The notes: generated by a model not told the origin, from the sequence alone. DNA of 64,000 nucleotides from an uncultured Bacilli bacterium (GCA_934091055.1 CAKOKN010000004.1:2293-66292), one strand, 5' to 3'; positions 2,624 through 63,362 are shown, numbered from the stretch's first letter. A program made the numbers and translations.

Positions 2624-2624
2624 A

Positions 2625-2652
2625 AAATTTAGAGATTACAAGCTCTAAATTT
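2625..2652 (+). terminator. Intrinsic terminator of the SEDS gene
   Basis: A 10-bp stem (AAATTTAGAG / CTCTAAATTT) with an 8-nt loop, followed by CTTTTT. Confidence 0.6.
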
Positions 2653-2653
2653 C

Positions 2654-2706
2654 TTTTTGAAGACAAGAAGGCTTCAAAAACATTTGTAAGACAAAGACTT
2701 ACAAAT
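2654..2706. repeat. Two tandem hairpins, degenerate members of the GAAG-AC..GG-CTTC intergenic hairpin family
   Basis: TTTTTGAAG-acaagaagg-CTTCAAAAA and ATTTGTAAG-acaaaga-CTTACAAAT, in the convergent gap between ftsW and mraY. Confidence 0.5.
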
Positions 2707-2733
2707 AAACAAAAGAAAGAGCTAACACTCTTT

Positions 2734-3726
2734 CTATAACCAAACACCATATATCAAAGCTAACATACTCAAGATAAAGCCCACTATCCAAAATAACTTA
2801 ACAATATCATTCTCTCTCCAACCAAGTCTCTCAAAATGATGATGAATAGGAGTCATCAAGAATACCTTCTTCTTAAGTAACACCACTGAACTAATCTGAA
2901 TAATAACAGTAAGTGTCTCAATAACAAATACTCCTCCTATCAAAACAAGTGACAACTCGTGAGAAGTAAGAATAGCAATAGTAGCCATCGTAGCTCCCAA
3001 AGTCAAGCTACCAGTATCTCCCATAAACACTTTAGCAGGATTAGTATTATAAACCAAAAATCCCATAATAGAACCCACTAATACAAAACAAAAGATACCC
3101 ATATCAGCATTACCTTCAATCCACCAGCTACCCATAGCAATAAGACCAAAAGCCAAGAACGATATCGCAGACAATCCACCAGCCAGTCCATCAAGACCAT
3201 CAGTCAAATTAACCGCATTCGAAGATCCTACTAAAAGGAATAGAATAAACACTCCATAAAACCATCCTAAGTTCCATTCAATTCCTAATGCCGATATCCT
3301 AAGATAAGAATCCCCATCAGTAAACTGCCTAAACAAAACATAAAATACAAGTGCTACAATAAGCTGTAACAAAAGCTTCTGAAACTGCGTAAGCCCCTTA
3401 TTAGCCTTCCTCTTCAAACTTATAAAATCATCCAAAAATCCAATAAGTCCATAAGCCAAAAATACAAAGAGCACTATCACCAAGTTAACAGAATACTCTA
3501 TTTTTCCCGTAAGTAATAAAAAGAGCATTATAGCAAAAGTTGGTAAAATAAATATAAGTCCCCCCATAGTAGGTGTACCAGCTTTCCCTCTGTGAGCCTC
3601 TACATAAACATTTATTCTCTGTCCCGCTTTAAGTTTCTTCAAAAAAGGAATAGCAATAAGTCCAAATATAGTTGCACCAACAAATCCAAGCATTAGTGCA
3701 AATAAAGATTTAGTTAAAGTTAACAT
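2734..3726 (-). CDS. mraY: Phospho-N-acetylmuramoyl-pentapeptide transferase
   Basis: Polytopic membrane protein with NAVNLTDGLDGLAGG, MGDTGSL and PIHHHFE motifs. RBS is GGAGTGA. Confidence 0.93.
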   Translation of the reverse strand: MLTLTKSLFALMLGFVGATIFGLIAIPFLKKLKAGQRINVYVEAHRGKAGTPTMGGLIFILPTFAIMLFLLLTGKIEYSVNLVIVLFVFLAYGLIGFLDDFISLKRKANKGLTQFQKLLLQLIVALVFYVLFRQFTDGDSYLRISALGIEWNLGWFYGVFILFLLVGSSNAVNLTDGLDGLAGGLSAISFLAFGLIAMGSWWIEGNADMGIFCFVLVGSIMGFLVYNTNPAKVFMGDTGSLTLGATMATIAILTSHELSLVLIGGVFVIETLTVIIQISSVVLLKKKVFLMTPIHHHFERLGWRENDIVKLFWIVGFILSMLALIYGVWL

Positions 3727-3905
3727 TATTTCACTCCATTTCTAAGTATATTATAACACATATATTTTAAATAAGTATTATCTTTTAAACTATTTTACAT
3801 CCTACTGTAAAATATTATTCTATACATCTAAGTATATCTATTAATTAATATTAAGTCAAGTATTACTACACTATATATTAATCATTAATTTCATAAATAG
3901 AACCA

Positions 3906-4784
3906 CTATTTATATCTTCTTGTATAAGTTCTAGCTAAAGCAACTTCTCTACTAGTCAAACTATCAATATAATTAGTAGGATTCTCATTCTCAGCATTAG
4001 ATAAGATCTTATTAAAACACTCAAGTAAATTAAAATCAACCCCTATATCATTCAAATAATTTATAAAATCATAAAACTCTGTCAAAGAAACATTATTTAT
4101 TCTTCCATTATATAAATACTTCAATATAACAATAACATAACAATATATATCAGTATTATAATCTACTACATAACTAGTAAAATAACTACTCTCTATATCT
4201 GTCTTATACTTACCATTAACATTATTAAGAAGAGCTGCTGGTGTCAAATACTTCGCAATAGGAGACTTATTACCTGCTATCTTACAACTATCCAAATCAA
4301 CAACATAAATCTCTTTCTGATCTAAATTAACAACAAAATTATCTTCATGTAAATCCCCTATAAAGAAATCTTTTAAAGGCGTATAAGTTCTAATCTTATT
4401 CATCTGCTCTAACACTTGCCCTATTCTCTTTAAATAATACTTCTTCTCTTCAAGATCGATACTACTATCATTTAAAATAGTACTAAGATTACTACCAACA
4501 ACCCTATTCATTGCAAAAGCCTCTACTTCATTATTAATACCCACCAAATAATCAGGCACAATAAAATTATTAGGAATATACTCTTTATTAAAGTTTAAAC
4601 ACTCTAAAGAATATAACTTATTAGCAAAAACAGGTCCATTGGTCTTATTTAATCTCTTTAATACTTTCTTGTCTCCCTTATATTCAAAATCAAATAAAAC
4701 TCCTTCAGCATTAAATATATCCTCTGATAAAACTAATGGCTTTAACTTAGCAAACTCTCTCTTTGATAAATTAATCATCTTCAT
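3906..4784 (-). CDS. Protein-kinase-like fold protein (APH/CotS-type phosphotransferase superfamily), function unknown
   Basis: KKVLKRL is a candidate ATP-binding Lys, GDLHEDNF a catalytic-loop-like D/HxxxxN, and VVDLDS a DFG-equivalent. There is no Gly-rich loop. It lies between the class B PBP and mraY. Confidence 0.4.
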   Translation of the reverse strand: MKMINLSKREFAKLKPLVLSEDIFNAEGVLFDFEYKGDKKVLKRLNKTNGPVFANKLYSLECLNFNKEYIPNNFIVPDYLVGINNEVEAFAMNRVVGSNLSTILNDSSIDLEEKKYYLKRIGQVLEQMNKIRTYTPLKDFFIGDLHEDNFVVNLDQKEIYVVDLDSCKIAGNKSPIAKYLTPAALLNNVNGKYKTDIESSYFTSYVVDYNTDIYCYVIVILKYLYNGRINNVSLTEFYDFINYLNDIGVDFNLLECFNKILSNAENENPTNYIDSLTSREVALARTYTRRYK

Positions 4785-4850
4785 ATAAATTACCCCTCAT
4801 CAATGCCAAATATTATATCACAAAATACACAGTAATGCAATTATTTTCTT

Positions 4851-4904
4851 CTTCTTAAGCCTAAGGTCTTAAGAAGTATAATGAAGCCTAAGGTCTTCAT
4901 TATA
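4851..4904. repeat. Two tandem hairpins with conserved loop (CCTAAGGT on + strand)
   Basis: CTTCTTAAG-cctaaggt-CTTAAGAAG (4851-4876) and TATAATGAAG-cctaaggt-CTTCATTATA (4877-4904), immediately downstream of the PBP gene. Confidence 0.7.
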
Positions 4905-4912
4905 AACACTAT

Positions 4913-6820
4913 TTAATTTAAATACAATCTAACCTTCTCCCCCTCTGCTATTCTACTACCCGCAGCAGGTGATTGATTAATAACATTATCACCACTACCA
5001 CTATATTCAATAGAAAAATTCTTAAGTCTAGAAGAAGCTTCTTTCTTTGTAAGACCAACAACATCTTCTACATTATAATACTTCTTATCATACCATTGAT
5101 ACTTCTTCTCTGTTCCACCACTCTGTTTCTCTATACCCAAAGGAATAATAGCATCAGAAAGTATATTCTTAACAATAGGTGCCGAAACAGTACCACCATA
5201 CTGAGTAACACCCTTAGGATTATCAATAGCCAAATAAACCACTATCTTAGGATCATTAGCAGGCATAAACCCAATAAAAGACACTATATAATTACCTGTC
5301 ATATATATCCCATTATTAACCTTCTGCGCTGTACCAGTTTTACCTCCTACCCTATAACCATCTATATAAGCATTCCTACCAGTACCCAAAGACACAACAG
5401 ACTCCAAAGCCATCCTAACTTTCTCACTAGTATCACTACTAACAATATTATCTCTAACAACAGTCTTATCTATATCCTTAATAATCTGTCCCGTTTCTTT
5501 CTCTACTACCCTCTTAACAATATAAGGCTTATATAAAGTACCTCCATTTATTGCCGCAGATACCGCTGCCACTTGTTGAATAGCAGTCACACTAACTCCC
5601 TGTCCAAACGCCGTAGTAGCAAGTTCAACAGGTCCAACTTTAGATAAATCAAACAAGATACCAGTAGCCTCACCATTCAAATCAATACCAGTCTTCTTAC
5701 CATAACCAAAGTCCCTAATATAACTAAATAAAGTCTCCTTACCAAGTCTATTACCAAGTTCAACAAACCCCGGATTACAAGAATTCTGAACTACCTCAAG
5801 AAAAGTCTGCGCCCCGTGTCCTCCCTTCTTCCAACATTTAATTCTAGCCCCATCAACATTAACAGAACCACCATCATAAAAAGTATCCTTAAGTAAATCA
5901 ACCTTTCCATCATTAATCGCCGCACTAATAGTAAGTATCTTAAAAGTACTACCAGGTTCATAACTAGCCCATATTGCCATATTTCTATTTATAGTCTCAG
6001 TATCATACTTCTGATAACTATTAGGATTAAAATTAGGTCTTGAACTCATACCAAGTATCTGTCCACTATTAGGATCAATAGCTATAGCCCAAGCCCCCTC
6101 TGGATTATATTTTAATACTATATTATCTAATTCCCTTTCTATCGAAGCCTGTATATCATAATTAACAGTCAAGTATATATCAAGTCCATCATCAGGTTCA
6201 ACATACACAGAACTCCTATTTAAATTATTCCCTTTAGCATCACTAAAGTACTGAATAGAGCCAGCTTCACCCGTCAACACATCATCATACTCAAGTTCTA
6301 ATCCACTAAGTCCTTGATTATCTATACCAACATAGCCAAGTACATGTGAAAGCATCTCATTATTAGGATAATATCTCTTAGACTCTTTAAGTAAATAAAC
6401 CCCATCAAAGTTTAAAGCCTCTATCTTATCCGCTACTTCATAAGATAATCTTCTTCCCTCAGGATGTACTCTCTCCATCATAGATTTTTTATATAAATGC
6501 TCTTCTATTTTACTCTTATCTACTCCAAGTATCTCACTAATCTTACTAGCTACTATATCTTTATTCTTAATCTGATTAGGAATAAACACTAACGAAGTAG
6601 TAGTAAGATTACCCGCTACTATCTCCCCATCTATAGTATATATCCTTCCCCTATCAGCCTCTATTGGTAAATTCCTACTCCATACACCAGAAGCCAAAGT
6701 ATTTAACTTCTTATACTGTATAACCTCTATATAAAAAACTTTTAATACTATCAATAAAAAAACAAACATAATTACTATTAACACTATCTTAATTCTCTTA
6801 TGAATATTCTTATTAAACAA
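4913..6820 (-). CDS. Class B penicillin-binding protein with one C-terminal PASTA domain (SpoVD/PBP2B-like)
   Basis: N-terminal TM anchor. Transpeptidase motifs are GSTFK (SxxK), NSCN (SxN) and GGKTGTA (KTG). PASTA-like C-terminus is VEDVVGLTKKEASSRL...VRLYL. TTG start follows GGGGTGA. Confidence 0.88.
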   Translation of the reverse strand: MFNKNIHKRIKIVLIVIMFVFLLIVLKVFYIEVIQYKKLNTLASGVWSRNLPIEADRGRIYTIDGEIVAGNLTTTSLVFIPNQIKNKDIVASKISEILGVDKSKIEEHLYKKSMMERVHPEGRRLSYEVADKIEALNFDGVYLLKESKRYYPNNEMLSHVLGYVGIDNQGLSGLELEYDDVLTGEAGSIQYFSDAKGNNLNRSSVYVEPDDGLDIYLTVNYDIQASIERELDNIVLKYNPEGAWAIAIDPNSGQILGMSSRPNFNPNSYQKYDTETINRNMAIWASYEPGSTFKILTISAAINDGKVDLLKDTFYDGGSVNVDGARIKCWKKGGHGAQTFLEVVQNSCNPGFVELGNRLGKETLFSYIRDFGYGKKTGIDLNGEATGILFDLSKVGPVELATTAFGQGVSVTAIQQVAAVSAAINGGTLYKPYIVKRVVEKETGQIIKDIDKTVVRDNIVSSDTSEKVRMALESVVSLGTGRNAYIDGYRVGGKTGTAQKVNNGIYMTGNYIVSFIGFMPANDPKIVVYLAIDNPKGVTQYGGTVSAPIVKNILSDAIIPLGIEKQSGGTEKKYQWYDKKYYNVEDVVGLTKKEASSRLKNFSIEYSGSGDNVINQSPAAGSRIAEGEKVRLYLN

Positions 6821-12778: not shown

Positions 12779-14230
12779 TTAATTAAATAATTTTAATACT
12801 TCTTCTCGATCATCAAAATGTGTTCTCTCCCCATTCTTCTCTTGATATGTTTCGTGCCCTTTTCCAAGTATTAAAATTATATCTCCTTCTTCAGCATTAT
12901 CTATAGCATACTTAATAGCTTCTCTACGATCTGGTATCTTAATATATTTACCATCGGTTTTTTTAATACCAACTTCTATATCATTAATTATATCATTAAC
13001 ATCTTCATATCTAGAATTATCTTCTGTTAAAATAGATAAATCAGCATATTTACCAGACACTTCCCCCATATCATATCTTCTATCTTTACTTCTATTACCA
13101 CCACAACCAAATAAACTAACTATTCTTTTAGGATTATATTTTCTCATTGTAGTAAGAATACTCTCAGTAGACACTCCATTATGAGCGTAATCAATAATTA
13201 CTGTATACTTCTTACTTACTGGAACTATCTCTACTCTACCTCTTACTGCTACTTTAGCTAAAGCATCTTTTATACTATCAATATTACATTCCAACAAAGT
13301 AGTAACTACTATAGCGCAAGCACTATTATACGCTGAAAACTCTCCTGGTGTATTTACTAAAAATACATCATTTACTATTCCAGAAGTCTTCATTTCAAGT
13401 CCAATAAAATGTTCTCTTCTCAATAACTCCACTTTATCAATAACTAAATTAGCATCTTTATTATGCCCAAATGTATATACCTTACAAGTACAATCTTTTA
13501 TCATTTCTTTATAATGAATATCATCTATATTAAATATACCATTCTTACACATTTTAAATAATAAACTCTTACAATATATATATTCTTCCATATTCTTGTG
13601 TTCATTATCCCCTATATGATCTTCACTCAAGTTAGTAAATACTCCATAATCAAACATCATACCATCTACTCGGCCTACCTTTAAAGCTTGTGATGATACT
13701 TCCATAACTAAGTATTTCACTCCATCTTTTACCATTTCTCTTAAATACTTTTGAATATCATAACTTTCAGGAGTTGTATTTACTGTACTATAGTGTTTAT
13801 CTCCAAAGAAAACACCCATAGTTCCAATTACTCCAACTTTTTTATTATCTTCTTCTAAAATGTTCTTTATCATAAATGAAGTAGTAGTCTTACCCTTTGT
13901 ACCAGTAATAGCAATAGTAGTTAATTCACTACTAGGATTATCAAAGTAATTTATAGCCAAACGGGATAAACTCTTTCTAGTATCTTCTAATTTTATTACA
14001 GTAACATCACTATCTATATTAATATCTTTTTGTACAATAATAGTATTTGCTCCACTCTCTATTGCCTTTTCAATATAATCGTGACCATCTACCGAAGCAC
14101 CAACTAAACAAATAAAAGCATCTTCTTTTCCTACTTTTCTAGAGTCATAAGAAATATTATTAACTTCTACTTCTATATCACCTTTAACAACCTCATATTT
14201 TATTCCAGATAATATCTTTATAAGTTTCAT
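12779..14230 (-). CDS. murE: UDP-N-acetylmuramoyl-L-alanyl-D-glutamate--2,6-diaminopimelate (or L-Lys) ligase
   Basis: Mur ligase P-loop is ITGTKGKTTT. Also DYAHN and a C-terminal EDNSR (a variant of DNPR that keeps the Arg, which favours meso-DAP). The start was moved to the ATG after AGGAGGG; the listed ORF begins at TTG 14248. Confidence 0.9.
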   Translation of the reverse strand: MKLIKILSGIKYEVVKGDIEVEVNNISYDSRKVGKEDAFICLVGASVDGHDYIEKAIESGANTIIVQKDINIDSDVTVIKLEDTRKSLSRLAINYFDNPSSELTTIAITGTKGKTTTSFMIKNILEEDNKKVGVIGTMGVFFGDKHYSTVNTTPESYDIQKYLREMVKDGVKYLVMEVSSQALKVGRVDGMMFDYGVFTNLSEDHIGDNEHKNMEEYIYCKSLLFKMCKNGIFNIDDIHYKEMIKDCTCKVYTFGHNKDANLVIDKVELLRREHFIGLEMKTSGIVNDVFLVNTPGEFSAYNSACAIVVTTLLECNIDSIKDALAKVAVRGRVEIVPVSKKYTVIIDYAHNGVSTESILTTMRKYNPKRIVSLFGCGGNRSKDRRYDMGEVSGKYADLSILTEDNSRYEDVNDIINDIEVGIKKTDGKYIKIPDRREAIKYAIDNAEEGDIILILGKGHETYQEKNGERTHFDDREEVLKLFN

Positions 14231-14240
14231 ATTTACCCTC

Positions 14241-15134
14241 CTAATCAAGTTTTACTTGTTCTATCTTCAACTCTTCTTTAAATATCTCCTTAAAATTAAC
14301 TAATTCTTTAGCAATAACATCAGGATATACAGCTTTAGTAGTTCTAACAGCATCATATATATTTTTAAAGTTTATTGTCCTTCTATTCTCATAAATAGCA
14401 TTAGAAAAACACTGTCTTAATATTACTAAAGCTATATCTGGATATCTAGATGATATCTCATATACTCTCTTAAATTCAGTAGTCATATTAACTATAAACT
14501 TCATTATCTTCTCTTTAATAAAATCAGTATAAGGAAGTACAACACCAGTTTGTTTTTCTAACTTAGGCAATGTCTGCATAAGTATCTCTACAGTCATCTC
14601 TTCAGTAGGTTCTGAAACATCTACCTTTTCAAATCTTCTTAAGAAAGCCTTATCTCTCATAATATACTTTTCATATTCATAAGTAGTTGTAGCACCTATC
14701 ATCTTAATAGTACCTCTACTTAATCCCTCTTTAAACATATTAGCAAGATCCAAAGCTCCTTGTGCATCATTACCTATCAATGTATGTATCTCATCTATAA
14801 ATAATATTACTTTTTCTCTATTCTTTAACTCTTCTACTAACTTTAATACTCTATTCTCTTCTCCATTAGTATTAATTAAAGCTGTTGTATTTACTCTATA
14901 TATAGTATACCCCTGTAAAGCTTCAGGAACTTCATTTCTTTGTATCCTATAAGCAAGTCCTTCTACAATAGCAGTCTTACCTATACCAGGTTTACCAACT
15001 AATACCGCTGACTTCTCTGGAGTTAACAATACCAATATTAATTTTTTAATTTCCTCATCCCTAGCTACTGCTGGATTAGTAATATAAGTAACATCAGTTA
15101 AATTATCCGAAAATCTATCTAAAATTGAATCCAT
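14241..15134 (-). CDS. Stand-alone AAA+ ATPase resembling the first nucleotide-binding domain (NBD1) of ClpA/ClpB/ClpC
   Basis: Walker A is GKPGIGKT and Walker B is ILFIDEIH. Sensor is GATT, and RRFEKVDV is also present. TAIVEGLAYRIQRNEVPEAL is collinear with Clp NBD1. There is no N-domain, middle domain or NBD2. The stop lies 10 nt before the murE ATG. Confidence 0.75.
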   Translation of the reverse strand: MDSILDRFSDNLTDVTYITNPAVARDEEIKKLILVLLTPEKSAVLVGKPGIGKTAIVEGLAYRIQRNEVPEALQGYTIYRVNTTALINTNGEENRVLKLVEELKNREKVILFIDEIHTLIGNDAQGALDLANMFKEGLSRGTIKMIGATTTYEYEKYIMRDKAFLRRFEKVDVSEPTEEMTVEILMQTLPKLEKQTGVVLPYTDFIKEKIMKFIVNMTTEFKRVYEISSRYPDIALVILRQCFSNAIYENRRTINFKNIYDAVRTTKAVYPDVIAKELVNFKEIFKEELKIEQVKLD

Positions 15135-56643: not shown

Positions 56644-57460
56644 TATTATCTTCCTCCTTGTCATCTTCAAACTCATCATCTAAAAGTACTTCTTTTTTAG
56701 GTTTAAGTTCTTCTATCAAGATCATTCTAGCATCATCTAAAGAAAGATTATAATTTAAGTTTCCACCTACTGCTATTGATATCTTACCAGTCTCTTCACT
56801 TACAACGACAGCTATAGCATCAGATTCTTCGCTGATACCAATCGCTGCTCTATGCCTAGTACCAAGTTTTTTATTAATCTTACTATTAATACTTATTGGA
56901 AATACAGCTCCCGCAGAAGTGATTTTATTACCTTGTATTATTACACCACCATCGTGAAGAGGATTTCTAGGAAAGAATATAGAAATCAACAGTTCAGAAG
57001 AAATATCTCCATATATTGGTTTACTTCTTTCAATATATTCATTCAAGCTAATATCTCTTTCTATAACTATTAATGCTCCTATTCTAGATTTTCTTAAATA
57101 ATCAACCGCAGACATAACTTCATATACAAGTTTTTCTCTCTCATCCAATGTAAGCATCTTATGTCTGCCAAGTAACTGCTTTCTACCAATATGCTCCAAA
57201 ATACTTCTAATTTCTGGCTGAAATATAATTATAAGAGCAAGTGGCCCCCACATAATAACATATTCTAAAAGCAATCCTATCGTAGTCAAATTTAAAGTAT
57301 CACTAAGGATCTTAATAATAATAACTACTAAAACTCCTTTAAATAACAAAACCATCTTTACATTATTCTTAATATTCTTAAGAACAAAATAAATAATCAT
57401 CCATACTAAAGATATATCTATTATCTTTTGTAATATTACTAACATACTATCAACAGTCAT
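56630..57460 (-). CDS. cdaA: Diadenylate cyclase CdaA
   Basis: Three N-terminal TM helices plus a DisA_N/DAC domain (GALIVIERD, HDGGVIIQGNKI, GTRHRAAIGISE). No glmM follows cdaR here. Confidence 0.92.
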   Translation of the reverse strand: MTVDSMLVILQKIIDISLVWMIIYFVLKNIKNNVKMVLLFKGVLVVIIIKILSDTLNLTTIGLLLEYVIMWGPLALIIIFQPEIRSILEHIGRKQLLGRHKMLTLDEREKLVYEVMSAVDYLRKSRIGALIVIERDISLNEYIERSKPIYGDISSELLISIFFPRNPLHDGGVIIQGNKITSAGAVFPISINSKINKKLGTRHRAAIGISEESDAIAVVVSEETGKISIAVGGNLNYNLSLDDARMILIEELKPKKEVLLDDEFEDDKEEDNNEDA

Positions 57461-57475
57461 ATCAAAAACTCCTTT

Positions 57476-57964
57476 CTACTTAACAATATATATGGCCGCA
57501 TTAACGCAAAAATAACAAAGTAATATAACTCCTCCAAAAAGAAGTAACATATTATAAACGAAGCCATCATTCGAAGATATTATTTTTCTATTATTAATAA
57601 CATTATCATTATTCTTAGAATTAATATATCTTAAAAAATCACTTCTTGTCATAATACCATAGCATTTATATAAATTTTTATTTTTTTTACCAGCATATAG
57701 TAAATTTAATTTATTGGTATCATAATAAGAAAGAGAAAAACCTATATTTTGATAAATCTCTTTTCTATCTTCCATTCTCTCCGCGGATATATTAATATAA
57801 TAAATATCATTATCTTCAATAATCAAAGAAAGTTTTTTACAAACTATCATAAGTTCATCTTCTGTAACATTAATATTACTTTGAAATAAATAAATGGTAT
57901 CATTTATTATACGATAAGTAAAATGATCTGTAAGTTTTTCTAATTTAACACTATTTTTCTTCAT
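57476..57964 (-). CDS. Hypothetical tail-anchored membrane protein
   Basis: 162 aa with a C-terminal TM (MLLLFGGVILLCYFCVNAAIYIV). It lies downstream of the adhesin-sortase ORF. Confidence 0.4.
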   Translation of the reverse strand: MKKNSVKLEKLTDHFTYRIINDTIYLFQSNINVTEDELMIVCKKLSLIIEDNDIYYINISAERMEDRKEIYQNIGFSLSYYDTNKLNLLYAGKKNKNLYKCYGIMTRSDFLRYINSKNNDNVINNRKIISSNDGFVYNMLLLFGGVILLCYFCVNAAIYIVK

Positions 57965-58036
57965 CTTATTTTACCTTCCCGTCTATAATAATTCTATCAC
58001 GATAAATATAAAAAAGCAAGAAAAAGAAGAGCAAAA

Positions 58037-60988
58037 TTACTCTCCTTCATATGATTTAATTTCTTTTAAATAACCAATATACACCACTTGTCCATCACTA
58101 CTATTGTCCTTGCAGGTAATTAAAATTATACTTTTTTTGTTTTCATCTCGATATATATCAGCATATCCATTCTTCTTAATTTCATAACTATCACTATATA
58201 TATAAGTATATATTTTACCATCATAATAATAATTTATACTATCTCCTAATTCTAGCTTATTTAATTTGCCAAAATAAGAATTATAATTATTACCATTATG
58301 TGAAGCTAATATTACACTATCACTATTAATACTTAATAACTCTATATTGTAATTAGCACTATTATATTTATTATCAATATCAAGTACTCCTCTTTTTAAA
58401 CCTATCGAAGGTATTTCTAGTAAATACTTATAACGATATTTTAAAGCCACCTTATCATTTATCTTTTCATCAATGAAAAGTTCTATATTTTTATTATTCT
58501 GATAATTATCATTAAGATATCTAAATGTTTGAAAAGAAATATACCCCAAACAAAATATAATAAGTAAAATAGTTATAATTTTTATTCTTTTATTACTTAC
58601 AAAAAAGATAAGTAAGATAATACTAAACGTCATTAAAATAATAAAAATAATATTTGTAATATTAATTATTCCTGTATTAGGAACTGCTATTCTCTCATTA
58701 TATACATCTATATTTAATTCCTCTTTATCAATGGTAAAATATATTTTATCCTTAAGTAGTCTATACCCACTAGTAGCTTCAACTTCACTTATATAGTATT
58801 CTCCATATAACAAATCATCTAAAACTATTTGACCATTCTTATCAGTATAACCTTTATAGACAAGCTTATCATCTAAAGTATAAATTTCAAACAAAGTATT
58901 AGAAAGTAAAACTCTACTATTGGTTTCGTATTTATTTATTACTAGTTTTCCTTTAGGTAAATAATTTTCAATATCAACTTCATAAACAACATTTGCTGTG
59001 TATTGATCTTTATATTCAAGATTAATATCATATTCTTTATCATTAACTATATTATTATTACTAGACTTAACTTCAATCATATAATAAGCACCAAGAGGTA
59101 AATTATTTAAACTACCAAAGCCATCTTTATTAGTAATTATTTTTCCTACTAAGTCATCTTTATTATATACAAGTACATCATTATCATAAATATCCTCTTT
59201 AGCATACACTTCAAAATAGACATCTTCTAATTTTACTTTATCATAATAATAAGAATTATCTTTATATATAATATTCTCCCCATACTTATTTACTTTAATA
59301 CTACCCTTAACAGCCTTGTTATAGAAAGGAATTTCAATAACTATTCCATAATCATCATCATTTATCAAATTAGAATTTTTATCAATTGAAAACTTAATAC
59401 CATCTTTGTTATAAAGATATCCATTCATATAATCATCTATTTCATATAAAATATAATTGCCTGCACTAAGAACTTCTGGCGTAACAAAATAACCATCATT
59501 ATTTATCTCAAACTCATCTATTACTTTATATTCTGGATAAGTACTCTTAAAGGAAACATATCTATTATTGTTAACATCAAATATCTTAAACCTAAACTTC
59601 TTATTTTTAATAACAGTTCCTATAGCAGCATCTTTTTTAACAACTCTAAGTTTTGCTTTAACAGTACCATTAGATATAACCTTATAAATAGGTCTTTCAT
59701 CATCAAAAAGTATGTCAATAAAAGTATCTTCAATCATATAATGATTATCGCTTCCTTTTACTTGATGAAGCCTATACCTTCCATATGGAAGAACAATACT
59801 AGCATAACCATCATTATCAGTTATTATAGTATCTACTAAAATGTTATTCTTATCATATATTTCAAAAACTGCCAAAGCCTCTCCAGTTAATATACCTGTA
59901 CTATCACTACCAAATACTTTAAAGATATCTACTCTTCTTTTAATAACATCTTCATAAACTGTTAAATCAATATTCAAATTATCCTTAGTAATATCTAAGT
60001 TATAAACATTAAGATCAAGTAAATAACCTTGACTAGCTTTTACTTCTTTTAAATAATACTTACCAACAGCAAGGCCAGTAACTTTCTCTTTCTTACCTAT
60101 TATTAATGTATCAATAAGATTATTATCACTATCATATAATTCATATTTTGCCCCACTTAAAGTTGCATCACCAGAAGGTACATTACTATTATTATCTCGA
60201 TCAAACTTACTTATTTTTAATGAACCACTAACTATATCAACAGAAATCCTACTAGATACAGTATCAGCACCACCAACAGATAACATCTTTTGTGACACTC
60301 CAGAAGTATATAATAAAAACTCTTTGTTCAAACTACTTTTCTTATTTAAAACTATCTCTTTTTTATCAAAGTCTTTTTTAATTATTAGTTTATTATTATC
60401 TATTACAACATTATCACTAGAAGTAGTATATCTAGATAGAACACCGTTACGATCCTCAATAACTAATTCTTCGCCTTTTATTAAAGTAATCTTATCCCCA
60501 TCAAATGAAGGTTTTAAATAATGACTATCTATTAAAGACAATATGTCTTCTTTCTCTTTTGATACATCAACAACTATATTAGGATTTAATTCTTTTACCC
60601 ATTTAGTTTTAGCAGAAGACAATCTATTCCAAATAAGTTCTTGTGCGGCCATATAATAATTATTTGTTTTATGGCCTGGATAATCATAACCATAATAGCC
60701 TATTAATTTAATATATTCTAGATTATCTTTTGATATAGCAAACTTGTCAAAAGAAGATGTAACTTCATATATGTTGCTTTCTATACTCTTACCTAATTCC
60801 AAACAATAACCAATATTATTACCAAATACATATTTGCTAGCATTAATATATCTTTCTCTTTCAAGAACAGTATCATAGTAATAAACATAAGTATCATCTA
60901 TTCTATCTTTAACCAAAGTAACAGTCTTTGCAGCAACATTCATAGACATAAATAGAAAAAAAACAATAAAAAAGATAACTTTTTTCAA
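58037..60988 (-). CDS. Surface adhesin (signal peptide, thioester domain, SpaA/CnaB-type repeats, VPNTG sorting signal) fused in frame to a sortase-like domain
   Basis: TTG start 7 nt after GAAGGAGG. Thioester-domain motifs are YCLE (Cys62) and AAQELIW (Gln116). There are at least four prealbumin-fold repeats. VPNTG is at nt 58670-58684, followed by a hydrophobic stretch and SNKRIK. A second TM follows, then LEIPSIGLKRGV, ILASHNG and IILITC sortase motifs (nt 58037-58579). Confidence 0.75.
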   Translation of the reverse strand: MKKVIFFIVFFLFMSMNVAAKTVTLVKDRIDDTYVYYYDTVLERERYINASKYVFGNNIGYCLELGKSIESNIYEVTSSFDKFAISKDNLEYIKLIGYYGYDYPGHKTNNYYMAAQELIWNRLSSAKTKWVKELNPNIVVDVSKEKEDILSLIDSHYLKPSFDGDKITLIKGEELVIEDRNGVLSRYTTSSDNVVIDNNKLIIKKDFDKKEIVLNKKSSLNKEFLLYTSGVSQKMLSVGGADTVSSRISVDIVSGSLKISKFDRDNNSNVPSGDATLSGAKYELYDSDNNLIDTLIIGKKEKVTGLAVGKYYLKEVKASQGYLLDLNVYNLDITKDNLNIDLTVYEDVIKRRVDIFKVFGSDSTGILTGEALAVFEIYDKNNILVDTIITDNDGYASIVLPYGRYRLHQVKGSDNHYMIEDTFIDILFDDERPIYKVISNGTVKAKLRVVKKDAAIGTVIKNKKFRFKIFDVNNNRYVSFKSTYPEYKVIDEFEINNDGYFVTPEVLSAGNYILYEIDDYMNGYLYNKDGIKFSIDKNSNLINDDDYGIVIEIPFYNKAVKGSIKVNKYGENIIYKDNSYYYDKVKLEDVYFEVYAKEDIYDNDVLVYNKDDLVGKIITNKDGFGSLNNLPLGAYYMIEVKSSNNNIVNDKEYDINLEYKDQYTANVVYEVDIENYLPKGKLVINKYETNSRVLLSNTLFEIYTLDDKLVYKGYTDKNGQIVLDDLLYGEYYISEVEATSGYRLLKDKIYFTIDKEELNIDVYNERIAVPNTGIINITNIIFIILMTFSIILLIFFVSNKRIKIITILLIIFCLGYISFQTFRYLNDNYQNNKNIELFIDEKINDKVALKYRYKYLLEIPSIGLKRGVLDIDNKYNSANYNIELLSINSDSVILASHNGNNYNSYFGKLNKLELGDSINYYYDGKIYTYIYSDSYEIKKNGYADIYRDENKKSIILITCKDNSSDGQVVYIGYLKEIKSYEGE

Positions 60989-61229
60989 ACAAAAACCTCC
61001 TTCAAAAAATTAATTTTTCTCTTTCTTGCAATTGCAGTCAAAGTATAAACTATATTAGTAGCAAAGTCAATCACTTTTTTATCATTTTTTATGTAGAAAA
61101 AACTATACTCATTAATATCAATATATAGATAATCAAATTTGAAACTATTGTTCGAGCAAACATATATACTCAATTATTTTTAAAAGAAAAACTACTAATA
61201 CTTTTATTAGTAGTCAACAAGAAAATTAA

Positions 61230-61493
61230 TCATAAAACATTATTCATTCCAGATGAACTTATTCCTGTAGATGTAACAATAGCAACCATTATTAAGATTA
61301 TAATTATTGCTAATATAAGTGAACAAAAATATGATCTAGCAAAATTTCTTCTATTAATATTATCATTATTAAATGCAAATACTAATAGAAATATAAATCC
61401 TATTAATGGTATAGTAAACAATAATTGATAGCCAAAATAAGCCCAAGGTGATAATGGTTTATAATTATATGGAATATTATTGTTATTATCCAT
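61230..61493 (-). CDS. Small membrane protein (2 TM)
   Basis: 87 aa with two hydrophobic helices separated by NNDNINRRNFARSY. Confidence 0.45.
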   Translation of the reverse strand: MDNNNNIPYNYKPLSPWAYFGYQLLFTIPLIGFIFLLVFAFNNDNINRRNFARSYFCSLILAIIIILIMVAIVTSTGISSSGMNNVL

Positions 61494-61553
61494 ACTTACC
61501 TCCTTACTCCTATAACAATATTATACCATATAAATAATTCTATATAATAAATA

Positions 61554-61940
61554 TTAATTAAATTTTTCATTATTTTTTATTTCATTGATTATCCAAGTCA
61601 TAATGACATTTACAATATAATCAACTTGTTTATCAGTTAAAATATTACCTTTTTTTATATGATGCCACTTTTCTAAACAGCCTCTACAACAAGTAGCGGT
61701 AGCGTGTTGTGCTATAAAAGTAGGATGCCCTCTCATCGGAGTTTGTTTACCATCAACAACATTAGAAACATCCCTAAGTCTCTTGTTAATAAAATCATAA
61801 GTATGTTCCATTATTTTATCTAAACCTTTTTCTTTTACATAAAATATATCTTTTTCTTTTAAATGAAAACTACTTCTAAATTTTGATTTAGATAATTTAT
61901 ATAACATATAATTTATTTCTTGTTCATTCATAACAACCAT
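61554..61940 (-). CDS. DUF4186 family protein
   Basis: DGKQTPMRGHPTFIAQHATATCCRGCLEKWHHI is the hallmark DUF4186 block. Confidence 0.8.
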   Translation of the reverse strand: MVVMNEQEINYMLYKLSKSKFRSSFHLKEKDIFYVKEKGLDKIMEHTYDFINKRLRDVSNVVDGKQTPMRGHPTFIAQHATATCCRGCLEKWHHIKKGNILTDKQVDYIVNVIMTWIINEIKNNEKFN

Positions 61941-62064
61941 ATATAATTCACCATATTCCGTTTTTTTTCTACTACTAAATAGTAAAGAAAAATTACTTAC
62001 AAATCAATTAACAAAAATATATTTTCTAGCTTAGAATTTTCTATTTTCTAGATAAATACTACTA

Positions 62065-62913
62065 CTAAAAACCTCTTTTGTTCTCAAAATTAGTAATAAT
62101 TACCTCTTCTACCTTACCTCTTTTTTTACCATTAGCATTAATATTTCTCTTAGCCTTTATAACATTTATATTATAATCTTTATAAAGTTCATTAATTAAA
62201 ATAGTATTATGATTAGAGAGCATAACATATACTCCTCTACTATCCAAATCTTTAAATACTTCAGCTAGTCTTCTTTGACTATCCTTATTAAAGCCATCTT
62301 CAGTATAACTATTAAATGTTGTAGTATCAGAATCATATGGTGGATCAAAATATACAAAATCTCCTTTTTTAGCAGTCTTAACAGCTTCTTCAAAATCAAC
62401 ACATAATATCTTGATATCATTCATTGTTAAATAATTGCTGACAGTAATTAAATTACCTCCATCATAAGTATTAACTTTAGTCTTTTTACCAAAAGGAACA
62501 TTAAATTCATTTTTGCTATTAACTCTATATAATCCATTAAAACAAGCCTTATTTAAATAAATAGTTCGAGCAGCTCTAGTATAATCAGATAATCTATTAT
62601 AAGAGGCCTTATTTCTATCCTTATTTCTCACATCATAAAAGAACTTTTCTGAATGTTCCATTTCATAATGATTAAGTACATTACACATTTTTTTGAACTT
62701 ATCTTCATCACATAAAACATTATATACATTCATAAGCTCGGCATTAGAATCATTAATAACTGCCTTTCTAGGAGATAATTCAAATAATAATGCTCCTCCA
62801 CCAATAAAAGGTTCATAATAAGTATCAAACTCGTCTGGAACATACATCATAAGTTTATCAATAATTTGTCTTTTACCACCAGCCCATTTCACAAATGGTT
62901 TTCCTTTAATCAT
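62065..62913 (-). CDS. dam: D12-class N6-adenine DNA methyltransferase (Dam family), apparently orphan
   Basis: FVKWAGGKRQI, EPFIGGGAL (SAM-binding) and catalytic FDPPY. No restriction endonuclease gene is adjacent. Confidence 0.85.
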   Translation of the reverse strand: MIKGKPFVKWAGGKRQIIDKLMMYVPDEFDTYYEPFIGGGALLFELSPRKAVINDSNAELMNVYNVLCDEDKFKKMCNVLNHYEMEHSEKFFYDVRNKDRNKASYNRLSDYTRAARTIYLNKACFNGLYRVNSKNEFNVPFGKKTKVNTYDGGNLITVSNYLTMNDIKILCVDFEEAVKTAKKGDFVYFDPPYDSDTTTFNSYTEDGFNKDSQRRLAEVFKDLDSRGVYVMLSNHNTILINELYKDYNINVIKAKRNINANGKKRGKVEEVIITNFENKRGF

Positions 62914-63005: not shown

Positions 63006-63362
63006 TTATCTAAATTGACAGCAGCTACCACATTGTTCATTAGTAACTGTATTTTCTTCACAGCAAGTATATCTAGGTTGATAAGTATGCTTATAAATAT
63101 GATTATTAACTATTCTAGTATTTATAGGACATACATGAGGTACAGTATGATAAATATTTCTGTATACTACTCTTTCTCTAGGAGTTTCTACAACTGGAGA
63201 AGTAACTCCACCCATTACAGAGCCTCCCATCATTGGAGTACCAACATTATTATAATTCATATTAGTATTATCATTAACATTTTGATTAGTATTAGTATTA
63301 GTTATGTTAATATCAATATCACCATCATACATACCTTGGTTAAAACCATCACTAAAATTCAT
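63006..63362 (-). CDS. CotD-like spore coat protein
   Basis: N/T/M/G-rich N-terminus. The C-terminus VVYRNIYHTVPHVCPINTRIVNNHIYKHTYQPRYTCCEE...CGSCCQF resembles the CotD H/P/Cys-rich repeats. RBS is TAGGAGGA. A CATATTATA element (sigma-K -10-like) lies about 24 nt upstream of the ATG. Confidence 0.6.
   Translation of the reverse strand: MNFSDGFNQGMYDGDIDINITNTNTNQNVNDNTNMNYNNVGTPMMGGSVMGGVTSPVVETPRERVVYRNIYHTVPHVCPINTRIVNNHIYKHTYQPRYTCCEENTVTNEQCGSCCQFR

What the first reader, a model, noticed from the sequence alone, without database searches (positions are those of the whole stretch)
58037..60988. Sortase substrate and sortase encoded as one polypeptide: a thioester-domain adhesin fused through its own VPNTG sorting signal to a sortase-like domain
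**What the sequence shows**
- A single uninterrupted 983-codon ORF encodes a signal peptide (..MNVAA/KT).
- Next is a domain with the paired motifs of thioester (TED) adhesins: YCLE with Cys62 (nt 60803-60805) and AAQELIW with Gln116 (nt 60641-60643).
- Then come at least four SpaA/CnaB-type prealbumin-fold repeats: AKYELYD..GKYYLKEVKA, AVFEIYD..GRYRLHQVK, VYFEVYA..GAYYMIEVK and TLFEIYT..GEYYISEVEA.
- A textbook cell-wall sorting signal follows: VPNTG (nt 58670-58684), 24 hydrophobic residues, then SNKRIK.
- Where a stop codon is expected, the frame continues into a second TM helix (IITILLIIFCLGYISFQTF).
- About 160 aa with sortase hallmarks follow: LEIPSIGLKRGV, ILASHNG (His897, nt 58298-58300), LELGDSI and IILITCKD (Cys959, nt 58112-58114).

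**Why it is unusual**
- Sortases are normally separate genes next to their substrates.
- In this layout, cleavage at VPNT/G would cut the enzyme away from its own substrate. That implies a self-contained, possibly single-turnover or in-trans surface-display module.
- The Arg normally found about 10 residues after the TLxTC Cys appears to be Gln (GQVVYIG). The domain may therefore be mechanistically divergent or inactive.
Basis: partly seen in the sequence, partly recalled or inferred. Interest (0 to 1): 0.75.

Follow-up and report, generated by a model that had tools for sequence, protein, structure and literature searches.

The report
Adhesin fused to its own sortase
A gut bacterium encodes a surface adhesin and the enzyme that should cut it loose and staple it to the cell wall as one protein; the fusion is real, old and arose several times, and the enzyme belongs to a large undescribed sortase group with glutamine in place of the 'essential' arginine.

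Summary
Its layout is: signal peptide, class II thioester domain (TED), five SpaA-type stalk domains, VPNTG sorting motif, TM helix, SNKRIK loop, second TM helix, then a sortase domain.

It is not an assembly artefact. More than 170 distinct homologues (50-59% identity, about 980 aa) keep one uninterrupted frame. At least 25 species-level genomes carry the gene at the same chromosomal position.

The fusion joins a conserved two-gene cassette. In 59 of 69 metagenomic loci, stand-alone relatives of the sortase domain overlap, by 17-53 nt, the end of an upstream TED+SpaA adhesin. That adhesin ends in VP[ND]T, a hydrophobic stretch and KKRK. At least two further fused lineages arose separately.

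His897 and Cys959 are invariant. Gln967 sits exactly where the catalytic Arg should be, and it is conserved across the whole clade, fused or not. No NCBIfam sortase class model matches this clade.

One correction: the thioester partner of Cys62 is predicted to be Gln233, not Gln116.

Catalysis, cleavage at VPNT|G and wall anchoring are inferred, not shown. I found no description of a natural sortase-substrate fusion.

The parts
61042..61070 (-). Promoter-like site TTGACT-17-TATACT upstream of the ORF
   Evidence: Consensus scan, 10 of 12 matches. This is weak evidence: such matches are no more frequent here than in shuffled sequence.
60996..61003 (-). Shine-Dalgarno GAAGGAGG, 7 nt before the TTG start
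   Evidence: Sequence read.
58037..60988 (-). Whole ORF, 983 codons plus stop: adhesin-sortase fusion protein
   Evidence: Homologues of 967-1009 aa with the same architecture are listed.
60929..60988 (-). Signal peptide, aa 1-20 (MKKVIFFIVFFLFMSMNVAA|KT)
   Evidence: Read from the sequence. An N-terminal K-rich segment followed by a hydrophobic segment is conserved in the family. The cleavage site is inferred.
60239..60928 (-). Class II thioester domain (TED), aa 21-250
   Evidence: phmmer to 6fx6 SaTIE-TED, E 3.4e-10. AF2 model pLDDT 88.5. Foldseek finds 6fx6 as the only significant hit, E 3.3e-14. PF08341 is recorded in many homologues.
60803..60805 (-). Cys62 (YCLE), predicted thioester Cys
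   Evidence: Invariant in 25 of 25 sequences. Aligns to SaTIE Cys296 (PMC6194298).
60641..60643 (-). [quoted passage not shown] It lies next to the thioester but is not its partner.
   Evidence: Invariant Q116 and W120. The motif's role is taken from PMC6194298.
60290..60292 (-). Gln233 (SGVSQKML), predicted thioester-forming Gln
   Evidence: Invariant. Aligns to residue 218 of chain 6fx6, which is SaTIE Gln467.
58694..60235 (-). Stalk of five SpaA/CnaB-type prealbumin-fold domains, aa 252-765
   Evidence: Pfam PF17802, 5 stretches, 161 bits. Invariant Lys/Asn/Glu positions fit isopeptide triads, for example K568, N675, K686, N764 and E737. The isopeptide bonds themselves are inferred.
58670..58684 (-). 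Sorting motif VPNTG, aa 769-773. Predicted cleavage is between T772 and G773.
   Evidence: P770 and T772 are invariant. VPNTG occurs in 142 of 176 family members. The motif is an island of conservation: top-residue frequency 0.89, against 0.43-0.52 in the flanking helices.
58598..58669 (-). Hydrophobic segment / TM helix 1 of the sorting signal, aa 774-797
   Evidence: Hydropathy. AF2 helix H15-33 of the 763-983 model. It aligns to the C-terminal hydrophobic domain of the unfused adhesin L033.
58580..58597 (-). Cytoplasmic basic loop SNKRIK, aa 798-803. This is the fusion junction: the former charged tail of the adhesin joined to the former N-terminus of the sortase.
   Evidence: The alignment with the unfused adhesin L033 ends here ('FFVSNKR' against 'LYGTKKR(K*)'). 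Unfused pairs overlap at exactly this point.
58523..58579 (-). TM helix 2, aa 804-822: the sortase membrane anchor
   Evidence: Hydropathy. AF2 helix H38-77. It corresponds to the N-terminal TM of the stand-alone relatives.
58433..58522 (-). Linker between TM2 and the catalytic domain, aa 823-852
   Evidence: The AF2 helix continues from TM2 to about aa 839. Conservation is low.
58040..58432 (-). Sortase catalytic domain, aa 853-983
   Evidence: Pfam PF04203, 41.2 bits against cut-off 26.6. AF2 pLDDT 91.3. The top 50 PDB fold matches are all sortases, best 7f87 at E 4.3e-10 and TMt 0.69.
58298..58300 (-). His897 (ASHNG), catalytic His
   Evidence: Invariant in all 176 family members and in the stand-alone clade.
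58112..58114 (-). Cys959 (LITC), catalytic Cys
   Evidence: Invariant.
58088..58090 (-). Gln967, occupying the position of the canonical catalytic Arg
   Evidence: Gap-free alignment to class A sortases, 'teRiivkG' against 'dgQvvyiG'. Q is present in 100% of fused family members and in nearly all of the 150 best representatives of the clade.
58023..58048 (-). Terminator-like hairpin plus T-run that overlaps the stop codon
   Evidence: The only terminator-like site in 57400-61600.

Best explanation
**What it is**
- The ORF is a genuine, vertically inherited fusion of two genes that are normally separate and overlapping.
- The first gene encodes a wall-anchored covalent adhesin of the TIE type: a class II thioester domain on a stalk of five isopeptide-type SpaA domains.
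- The second encodes the dedicated sortase that processes that adhesin's VP(N/D)T sorting signal.

**Predicted pathway (inferred)**
1. The signal peptide takes the N-terminus out through Sec.
2. The sorting-signal helix (TM1) stops transfer, the SNKRIK loop stays in the cytoplasm, and TM2 re-exports the chain.
3. Both the VPNTG motif (about 5 residues above the membrane) and the sortase domain (on a linker of about 30 residues) therefore end up on the outer face, side by side.
4. Cys959, with His897 and with Gln967 in the usual Arg role, attacks the T772-G773 bond of its own chain or of a neighbouring chain.
5. This forms a Thr772 acyl-enzyme, which is resolved by the amine of a peptidoglycan precursor.
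6. The adhesin ends up covalently attached to the wall. The fragment G773-TM1-loop-TM2-sortase stays in the membrane and may act again.
7. The thioester (Cys62-Gln233) then lets the cell bind a host or partner surface covalently.

**Shown versus inferred**
- Shown: the anatomy, the two folds, conservation of the motif and of the catalytic residues, the existence and gene order of the split form, recurrence of the fusion, and the presence of peptidoglycan genes in the window.
- Inferred: catalysis, the cleavage site, the nucleophile, cis versus trans action, the bond chemistry and the ligand.
For: **The fusion is real**
- The 120 best of 1802 hits are all 967-1009 aa, and all but one (P0093) have PF17802+PF04203 on record, at 50-59% identity.
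- All 176 family sequences examined keep the motif, His, Cys and Gln in one frame.
- At least 25 species-level genomes have the gene in the same place: ASCH - Cys-rich 118 aa - fusion - p162 - CdaA - CdaR. CdaA is 88-96% identical while the fusion protein is only 50-59%.

**A split form exists**
- In 59 of 69 analysed metagenomic loci, a stand-alone relative of the sortase domain (about 205-235 aa) overlaps by 17-53 nt the end of an upstream protein of 214-1233 aa, some cut by contig ends. That protein carries the TED Cys motif in most and ends in (E)VP[NDS]T, a hydrophobic stretch and KKRK. TED and SpaA domains were confirmed by Pfam in the three tested.
- The L033 adhesin aligns colinearly with window aa 4-801 (36% identity, E 6e-153) and stops exactly at the basic tail.

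**The fusion recurred**
- P0254 heads its own fused family: P0326-P0333, 786-897 aa, 60-67% identity.
- Its closest unfused relative, P0334 (706 aa), is followed by a 205-aa sortase gene that overlaps it by 23 nt.
- In an NJ tree, P0254 and P0272 nest apart from the window family among stand-alone sortases.

**The enzyme domain looks functional**
- It has a sortase fold.
- H897 and C959 are invariant, and Q967 is fixed clade-wide.

**The motif is under selection**
- It is a conservation island.

**The substrate part is a TIE-type adhesin**
-.

**A wall is available**
- FtsW/RodA, MraY, a PBP with a PASTA domain and a Mur ligase are encoded in the window.
- Related uncultured Bacilli (order RF39) are predicted to be mostly walled, with meso-DAP-type peptidoglycan (PMC10868615).

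**It is a single expression unit**
- A strong SD precedes the start, there is no internal SD or start at the junction, and a terminator-like hairpin sits at the stop.
Against: - There is no biochemical or proteomic evidence of any kind for cleavage, acyl-enzyme formation or wall linkage.
- The canonical catalytic Arg is missing.
- The window domain falls just short of the generic TIGR01076 cut-off (34-38 bits against 39.35) and far short of every class model.
- I could not survey a whole genome. I therefore do not know whether another sortase or other sorting-signal proteins exist in this organism.
- I could not inspect model coordinates. Whether VPNTG can reach Cys959 in cis is unknown.
- The organism assignment (RF39-like) rests on record titles and on my own knowledge.
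Confidence: 0.75

Rival explanations
1. Sequencing or assembly artefact: two adjacent or overlapping genes (adhesin and sortase) were merged by a missed stop or an indel in an A-rich run.
For: - In the split relatives the two genes overlap by about 23 nt inside A-rich runs, so a single indel would fuse them.
- One long-read MAG (L027, CP091726) shows this very gene broken by several frameshifts. Such errors therefore do occur in this gene.
Against: - More than 170 distinct sequences from independent assemblies and sources (NCBI, ENA, JGI, Logan) keep the single frame at only 50-59% identity. Some clusters hold thousands of members.
- At least 25 species-level genomes carry it.
- No Met or SD is conserved at the junction that could start a separate sortase.
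Confidence: 0.01
2. Pseudo-enzyme: the sortase-like domain has lost catalysis (Arg to Gln). The protein stays a membrane-anchored adhesin held by the TM hairpin, and the domain serves as a structural or peptide-binding cap.
For: - The canonical Arg is absent.
- The domain scores weakly against sortase models.
- A stalk of five Ig-like domains could span a thin wall without any transfer to peptidoglycan.
Against: - His and Cys are invariant in a fast-evolving surface protein.
- Gln at this position is fixed in hundreds of stand-alone sortases that sit next to substrates with sorting signals. That is the signature of an alternative active site, not of decay.
- VPNTG is the most conserved stretch of the C-terminal 220 aa outside the catalytic core.
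Confidence: 0.1
3. Polymerase: the domain works like a pilus-type sortase. It joins Thr772 to a Lys of another adhesin molecule and builds covalent fibres rather than anchoring monomers to peptidoglycan.
For: - The weak NCBIfam class matches are best, or near-best, for class C in most clade members tested.
- VPxTG-type motifs and a TED tip adhesin (Cpa) belong to streptococcal pili (my knowledge, not tested here).
- The stalk domains are SpaA-type.
Against: - There is no invariant YPKN-type pilin Lys: the 'YPE.K' position varies.
- No separate backbone pilin gene lies in the locus or in the split cassettes.
- No class C lid motif is seen in the linker.
- All class C scores are far below cut-off.
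Confidence: 0.08
4. Housekeeping sortase in disguise: the domain mainly acts in trans on other surface proteins of the cell, and fusion to one abundant substrate is incidental. This does not exclude the best explanation.
For: - After self-cleavage a free, membrane-anchored enzyme would remain.
- Related genomes encode other TED-SpaA proteins with a C-terminal signal and no adjacent sortase, for example L030 (507 aa, 'NPHTYDG' followed by a TM and KFGKER).
Against: - In the split form the enzyme is paired, and probably translationally coupled, with one adhesin in 59 of 69 loci.
- A regular-expression scan found no other protein with a sorting signal in the 64-kb window (weak evidence).
Confidence: 0.06

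Closest known systems
Canonical two-gene sortase systems (for example S. aureus or S. pyogenes SrtA with LPXTG proteins; B. anthracis SrtA with BaTIE/BasC)
   Same: - The sorting signal has three parts: a pentapeptide with invariant Pro and Thr, a hydrophobic helix, and a basic tail.
- The enzyme is membrane-anchored on a linker.
- It has the sortase beta-barrel with His and a TLxTC-type Cys.
   Different: - Enzyme and substrate form one polypeptide joined tail-to-head, so the sorting signal is internal, about 215 aa from the C-terminus.
- The motif is VPNTG, not LPXTG.
- Gln replaces the catalytic Arg.
- No class A-F model reaches its cut-off.
TIE proteins with class II thioester domains (SaTIE, BaTIE, EfmTIE86; Miller et al. 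2018, PMC6194298; TIEpLS20, PMC8092201)
   Same: - An N-terminal class II TED sits on a stalk of CnaB/SpaA isopeptide-type domains and is followed by a sorting signal.
- The Cys, Gln and TQxx(phi)W motifs align.
   Different: - Identity is about 20%.
- The protein carries its own sortase.
- It comes from uncultured gut commensals rather than from pathogens or plasmids.
- The ligand is unknown.
The split adhesin-then-sortase cassette found here in metagenomes (for example L033 3501-5999 + 5977-6615; L111 3001-5121 + 5099-5716)
   Same: - The parts are homologous from end to end: 36% identity for the adhesin and 40-54% for the sortase.
- It has the same VP[ND]T signal and the same His/Cys/Gln.
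   Different: - It is two ORFs that overlap by 17-53 nt in different frames.
- The stand-alone enzymes carry an extra 'S.MPD..GN' insertion before the His strand, which the window family lacks.
Engineered self-cleaving sortase fusion tags (sortase-LPXTG-target constructs; for example BISOP, PMC2901362; PMC10334657)
   Same: The enzyme and its recognition motif are in one chain, and the chain is designed to cut itself.
   Different: - They are artificial, soluble and arranged enzyme-first.
- They use class A SrtA and LPXTG.
- Here the arrangement is natural, membrane-embedded and substrate-first.
Autotransporters (type V secretion) of Gram-negative bacteria, as a functional analogy only
   Same: One polypeptide carries both a surface-displayed passenger and the machinery that installs it. 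The passenger is often separated from that machinery by cleavage.
   Different: The folds, the chemistry and the cell envelope are unrelated. This comparison rests on my own knowledge and was not tested.

Membership tests
Sortase superfamily (Pfam PF04203 / TIGR01076) | Profile match above the curated cut-off | tested here: met
   PF04203 scores 41.2 bits against 26.6. TIGR01076 scores 34-38.3 against 39.35, just below, for the window domain. It is above the cut-off for the stand-alone clade members, at 41-57 bits.
Sortase superfamily (Pfam PF04203 / TIGR01076) | Eight-stranded sortase beta-barrel fold | tested here: met
   AF2 pLDDT 91.3 and pTM 0.85. The top 50 Foldseek PDB hits are all sortases, with TMt up to 0.74.
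Sortase superfamily (Pfam PF04203 / TIGR01076) | Catalytic His and a TLxTC-type Cys | tested here: met
   H897 (ASHNG) and C959 (LITC) are invariant in 176 of 176 sequences and align to the SrtA His and Cys.
Sortase superfamily (Pfam PF04203 / TIGR01076) | Conserved catalytic Arg 8-13 residues after the Cys | tested here: not met
   Gln967 occupies the position. Q is fixed in the fused family and in nearly the whole stand-alone clade. R866 was considered as a substitute but is not conserved in the wider clade.
Sortase superfamily (Pfam PF04203 / TIGR01076) | Transpeptidase activity on a sorting signal | not testable with these tools
   This needs biochemistry or proteomics.
Sortase classes A-F (NCBIfam class models) | Score above a class-specific cut-off | tested here: not met
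   The best is class C, at 25.8-29.1 bits for the window domain and 45-63 bits for the stand-alone relatives, against a cut-off of 160. For one relative (P0190) the LPxTATN-specific class D model scored highest, at 52.7 against 140. Classes D, E and F are otherwise lower, and A and B are not listed.
Sortase substrates (cell-wall sorting signal) | Pentapeptide with conserved Pro and Thr, then a hydrophobic helix, then a basic tail | tested here: met
   VPNTG with invariant P770 and T772, a 24-residue hydrophobic segment and SNKRIK.
Sortase substrates (cell-wall sorting signal) | The signal lies at the extreme C-terminus of the protein | tested here: not met
   A further 180 residues follow the basic tail. 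Motif searches limited to the last 50 residues, as in PMC9210967, would miss it.
Class II thioester domain (TED) | TED fold with the class II beta-sandwich | tested here: met
   The only significant PDB fold match is the class II SaTIE-TED 6fx6 (E 3.3e-14, TM 0.68/0.70). The sequence match has E 3.4e-10. The slipknot itself was not examined.
Class II thioester domain (TED) | [YFL]C(phi)(zeta) Cys, (phi)Q(zeta)(phi)(phi) Gln and the TQxx(phi)W motif | tested here: met
   YC62LE, SQ233KML and AAQ116ELIW120 are all invariant. C62 and Q233 align to SaTIE Cys296 and Gln467.
Class II thioester domain (TED) | A Cys-Gln thioester bond actually forms (-17 Da) | not testable with these tools
   This needs intact-mass spectrometry of the recombinant domain.
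SpaA/CnaB isopeptide stalk domains (PF17802) | Profile match, with Lys / Asn(Asp) / Glu triad positions | tested here: met
   Five stretches, 161 bits. K451/K452, N557, K568, N675, K686, N764, E516, E639 and E737 are invariant. The bonds themselves were not tested.

The most novel reading that the evidence does not exclude
This would be an 'autosortase': an obligately cis-acting, effectively single-use module in which each adhesin molecule carries the enzyme that releases it from its own membrane hairpin and transfers it to the wall.

The module would be built on a previously unrecognised His-Cys-Gln sortase class that is dedicated to thioester adhesins and specific for VP(N/D)T. The pairing is tight enough that evolution has welded the two genes together at least three separate times. 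That would make it a Gram-positive counterpart of autotransporters and a ready-made, orthogonal, self-contained surface-display and ligation tool.

A further possibility is that the A-rich overlap of the split cassettes allows occasional +1 frameshifting, so that 'split' species also make some fused protein.
Probability: 0.2. Interest if true: 0.85.

Novelty: new variant of a known kind. Interest (0 to 1): 0.7.

Why it matters
- **Link between enzyme and substrate.** Sortases and their substrates are textbook examples of separate, diffusing partners. A natural, ancient and recurrent tail-to-head fusion is strong 'Rosetta-stone' evidence for which enzyme serves which substrate. It also physically joins the two transmembrane helices that recent simulations proposed to interact (PMC12746448).
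- **Catalytic triad.** The enzyme belongs to a large clade: 464 cluster representatives at E<1e-10. This clade lacks the Arg of the His-Cys-Arg triad that is described for every solved class (PMC11231552) and keeps Gln instead. It is a direct test case for what that residue really does.
- **New specificity.** The VP(N/D)T preference and the small size of the module could give an orthogonal sortase for protein ligation or surface display.
- **Gut biology.** The carriers are abundant uncultured gut Bacilli with reduced genomes; some clusters hold thousands of metagenomic members. A covalent thioester adhesin with built-in anchoring is a concrete lead to how they attach in the gut.
- **Annotation.** Pipelines that look for sorting motifs only in the last 50 residues miss this family.

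Tried and rejected
- **Source names.** The listing of cluster members returned none for 10 family clusters.
- **Literature.** Eight full-text searches were run. They found only engineered sortase fusions, general reviews and the RF39 peptidoglycan paper. None describes a natural fusion or a Gln-type sortase. The SrtA R197/citrulline work I remember could not be retrieved, so it is marked as my own knowledge.
- **R866 as a substitute Arg.** R866 ('LKRG') is nearly invariant in the fused family. I rejected it because the stand-alone clade has K, Q, N or S at that position. R947 ('IYRD'), conserved in the stand-alone forms, varies in the fused family.
- **Pilin motif.** The invariant 'YP' at 484-485 looked like YPKN, but the Lys position is not conserved.
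- **Internal start.** There is no conserved Met or SD at the junction. P0177, a 198-aa 'sortase' 97% identical to the window, is best read as a partial gene call.
- **L026 and L029.** tblastn reported them as full-length matches, but they are split pairs: the sortase is a separate ORF.
- **Plasmids.** tblastn with a stand-alone clade member found only a C. baratii class D sortase at 34% identity. The cassette is therefore not a known plasmid gene in that collection.
- **Other sortases or sorting-signal proteins in the window.** A regular-expression scan found none. This is weak negative evidence.
- **Not possible here.** I could not inspect model coordinates (does VPNTG dock at Cys959?) or take a whole-genome census.

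Full report
**1. Observation**

The window carries a single uninterrupted ORF at 58037..60988 on the minus strand (983 aa, TTG start). C62, Q116, VPNTG (769-773), H897 and C959 all fall exactly where stated, and the 24-residue hydrophobic stretch, the SNKRIK loop and the second hydrophobic helix are present.

The start is preceded by GAAGGAGG at a 7-nt spacing and by a promoter-like site. The only terminator-like hairpin in 57400-61600 overlaps the stop codon. There is no SD or start codon at the junction. The ORF therefore looks like one expression unit.

**2. Domains**

- Pfam finds five SpaA (PF17802) stretches (161 bits) and a Sortase domain (PF04203) at aa 857-964, at 41.2 bits against a cut-off of 26.6.
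- The N-terminal 240 aa match the solved class II thioester domain of S. aureus SaTIE (6fx6), with E 3.4e-10.
- An AlphaFold2 model of aa 21-262 (pLDDT 88.5) has 6fx6 as its only significant PDB fold match (E 3.3e-14, TM 0.68/0.70).
- A model of aa 763-983 (pLDDT 91.3, pTM 0.85) shows two long helices followed by a beta-barrel. Its top 50 PDB matches are all sortases of classes A, C, D and E.

**3. Correction on the thioester pair**

According to Miller et al. [quoted passage not shown] The Gln of the separate TQxx(phi)W motif is not required for bond formation.

In the alignment to 6fx6, C62 aligns to SaTIE Cys296. Q116 (AAQELIW) is the TQxx(phi)W Gln. Residue 218 of the 6fx6 chain, which is Gln467 and is the real partner, aligns to Q233 (SGVSQKML). 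C62, Q116, W120 and Q233 are all invariant in the family. The predicted bond is therefore Cys62-Gln233.

**4. Not an artefact**

- A search of 5.8 billion proteins returned 1802 hits. The best 120 are all 967-1009 aa and, apart from P0093, have SpaA and Sortase domains on record, at 50-59% identity to the window protein (one is 98% identical). They come from NCBI, ENA, JGI and Logan assemblies, and some clusters hold more than 1000 members.
- In all 176 family sequences I examined, the motif, His, Cys and Gln are present in one frame. The motif is VPNTG in 142, VPNTS in 11, VPDTG in 9, and rarer variants in the rest.
- The species-representative genome collection gave 30 loci. In 27 of them (L001-L025, L027, L028) the gene lies in the same context: ASCH - Cys-rich 118 aa - (DUF4186 or Dam, variable) - fusion - p162 - CdaA - CdaR.
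- CdaA is 84-96% identical across these genomes (88-96% outside the frameshift-ridden L027), while the fusion protein is only about 50-59%. This is a fast-evolving surface protein whose fused frame and catalytic residues have nevertheless been kept through long vertical descent.
- One long-read MAG (L027) shows the gene broken by frameshifts. I read that as sequencing error in that assembly.

**5. Where the fusion came from**

Scoring the sortase domain alone against 1.84 billion cluster representatives gave 1008 hits, 464 of them at E<1e-10. Nearly all are stand-alone proteins of about 180-230 aa with an N-terminal TM helix, 40-54% identical to the window domain.

I fetched 80 metagenomic loci encoding such stand-alone enzymes and analysed 69 of them. 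In 59, the sortase gene overlaps by 17-53 nt (typically 23-29) the 3' end of an upstream ORF of 214-1233 aa, some cut by contig ends. That ORF ends in (E)VP[NDS]T, a hydrophobic segment and KKRK, and most carry the TED Cys motif.

Pfam confirms TED plus five to nine SpaA domains in three of these upstream proteins. The L033 adhesin (832 aa) aligns colinearly with window aa 4-801 (36% identity, E 6e-153). The alignment ends at the basic tail: '...FFVSNKR' against '...LYGTKKR(K*)'.

The window ORF is therefore that two-gene cassette read as one frame. The substrate's cytoplasmic tail has become the loop of a TM hairpin, and the second helix of that hairpin is the sortase's own membrane anchor.

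In the split locus L111 the overlap is ATGATCATCAAAAGAAAAAATAA, with the sortase in the +1 frame. One indel in an A-run would be enough to fuse the genes.

**6. Recurrence**

- P0254 (896 aa, motif VPNTY) heads its own fused family: P0326-P0333, 786-897 aa, 60-67% identity, all with PF04203.
- Its nearest unfused relatives (P0334-P0338, 705-712 aa, 52-54% identity) are closer to it than the window family is.
- P0334 is followed by an overlapping 205-aa sortase gene.
- P0272 (680 aa, IPDTK), P0362 (1229 aa) and P0387 (1133 aa) are further fused architectures.
- In an NJ tree of 145 sortase domains, the window family is monophyletic (11 of 11), while P0254 and P0272 nest separately among stand-alone enzymes.

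I conclude that there were at least three independent fusions. Two caveats apply: the tree has no bootstrap support, and P0272, P0362 and P0387 are single representatives.

**7. The enzyme**

- H897 and C959 are invariant. Q967 sits at C+8, exactly where S. pyogenes-type SrtA has its Arg, and the alignment has no gap.
- Gln is universal in the fused families. It is present in 13 of 14 aligned stand-alone members and in nearly all of the top 150 representatives. P0281 has Arg, and P0305 may also be an exception.
- No other Arg is conserved across the clade.
- No NCBIfam class model comes near its cut-off. Class C scores best or near-best, at 26-63 bits against 160.

This is an unclassified sortase clade with a His-Cys-Gln active site. 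The literature describes His-Cys-Arg for every solved class (PMC11231552). From memory, replacing SrtA Arg197 with the neutral H-bond donor citrulline largely preserves activity, which would make a Gln amide plausible. I could not retrieve that work here.

**8. The motif**

Across 134 distinct family sequences, residues 763-773 (YNERIxVPNTG) have a mean top-residue frequency of 0.89. The values are 0.40-0.53 for the spacer, both helices, the loop and the linker, and 0.76 for the catalytic domain. A linker with no function would not be the best-conserved stretch of the region.

**9. Mechanism (inferred)**

The topology follows from the positive-inside loop: the N-terminus is out, TM1 runs out-to-in, SNKRIK is cytoplasmic, TM2 runs in-to-out, and the sortase domain is outside. 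This reproduces the normal geometry of both partners.

I propose that Cys959 attacks the T772-G773 bond in cis or in a neighbouring chain. The acyl-enzyme would then be resolved by a peptidoglycan precursor, leaving the TED adhesin on the wall and a two-helix enzyme stub in the membrane.

A wall is available. The window encodes FtsW/RodA, MraY, a class B PBP with a PASTA domain, a Mur ligase and a polysaccharide deacetylase. The related order RF39 is predicted to be mostly walled, with meso-DAP-type peptidoglycan (PMC10868615).

The AF2 model places residues 765-768 as a beta-strand, at pLDDT about 80 for the first ten residues and about 73 for the next ten, which hold most of VPNTG. That may mean the motif region packs against the domain. 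I could not see the coordinates, so I make no claim from it.

**10. Rivals**

- **Artefact:** rejected (sections 4 to 6).
- **Pseudo-enzyme:** disfavoured by the invariant His and Cys, the clade-wide Gln and the conserved motif.
- **Pilus polymerase:** there is no invariant pilin Lys, no backbone pilin gene and no lid motif.
- **Housekeeping enzyme acting in trans:** cannot be excluded without a whole-genome census, and is compatible with the main reading.

**11. Novelty**

Eight full-text searches found only engineered self-cleaving sortase-LPXTG fusions. They found nothing on a natural sortase-substrate fusion, on a Gln-type sortase, or on this cassette. Absence from this library is not proof of absence from the literature.

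I rate the finding a new variant of a known kind. The chemistry and the parts are familiar. Three things appear undescribed: the fused architecture, the VP(N/D)T-specific His-Cys-Gln clade, and its tight, repeatedly fused pairing with thioester adhesins.

**12. Verdict**

- Interest is 0.7.

Noticed in passing
window 57476-57964 (-): A 162-aa protein (p162) has no Pfam match and a C-terminal TM helix. In every genome examined it sits between the fusion gene and cdaA. It evolves fast (47-65% identity, against 84-96% for CdaA). It may be functionally tied to the adhesin or to c-di-AMP signalling.
   Followed up: partly
window 63006-63362 (-): A 118-aa protein has an Asn-rich N-terminus and a Cys-rich C-terminus (…CPINTRIVNNHIYKHTYQPRYTCCEENTVTNEQCGSCCQFR). 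It has no Pfam hit. It is 66-97% identical across the related genomes, far more conserved than its neighbours. It resembles small spore-coat-type proteins, which is my impression only.
   Followed up: partly
window 61554-62913 (-): The stretch between the Cys-rich gene and the fusion gene varies between genomes. DUF4186 is present in only some. The Dam-like methyltransferase (62065-62913) was found in only one other locus (L023, 95% identity). That suggests a small insertion hot-spot.
   Followed up: partly
window 1541-6820 and 12779-14248: Peptidoglycan genes are present: FtsW/RodA, MraY, a PBP with a PASTA domain and a Mur ligase. This low-GC (about 26%), 'Tenericutes'-labelled lineage therefore has a wall.
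   Followed up: yes
L111 5099-5121 (and L033 5977-5999): In the split cassettes the adhesin stop and the sortase start overlap inside an A-rich run (ATGATCATCAAAAGAAAAAATAA), with the sortase in the +1 frame. This could be a slippery site. Occasional frameshifting could produce fused protein even in 'split' species.
   Followed up: no
L030 7941-9464: A shorter relative (507 aa: TED plus two SpaA domains) ends in 'NPHTYDG', a hydrophobic helix and KFGKER, and has no sortase gene next to it. It may be a trans substrate of some other sortase.
   Followed up: no
protein P0211 (280 aa): This protein has a signal peptide, a segment of about 20 residues, a TM helix, a basic stretch, a second TM helix and a Gln-type sortase. 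It looks like a fusion whose adhesin part has been deleted.
   Followed up: no
L027 8001-10936 (CP091726): In this 'complete' MAG chromosome, the orthologous gene and its neighbours cdaA and cdaR are broken into several ORFs by frameshifts. The likely cause is homopolymer errors in a long-read assembly.
   Followed up: partly
L004 and L029 record titles: Contigs that carry this Bacilli-type locus are labelled Paludibacteraceae (L004, with full cdaA synteny) and Muribaculaceae (L029). These are probably binning errors.
   Followed up: no
stand-alone sortases, alignment A3 columns ~225-235: The stand-alone Gln-type sortases carry a conserved insertion 'S.MPD(I/V)..GN' just before the His strand. 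The window's fused family lacks it, while the P0254 and P0272 fused proteins keep it.
   Followed up: partly
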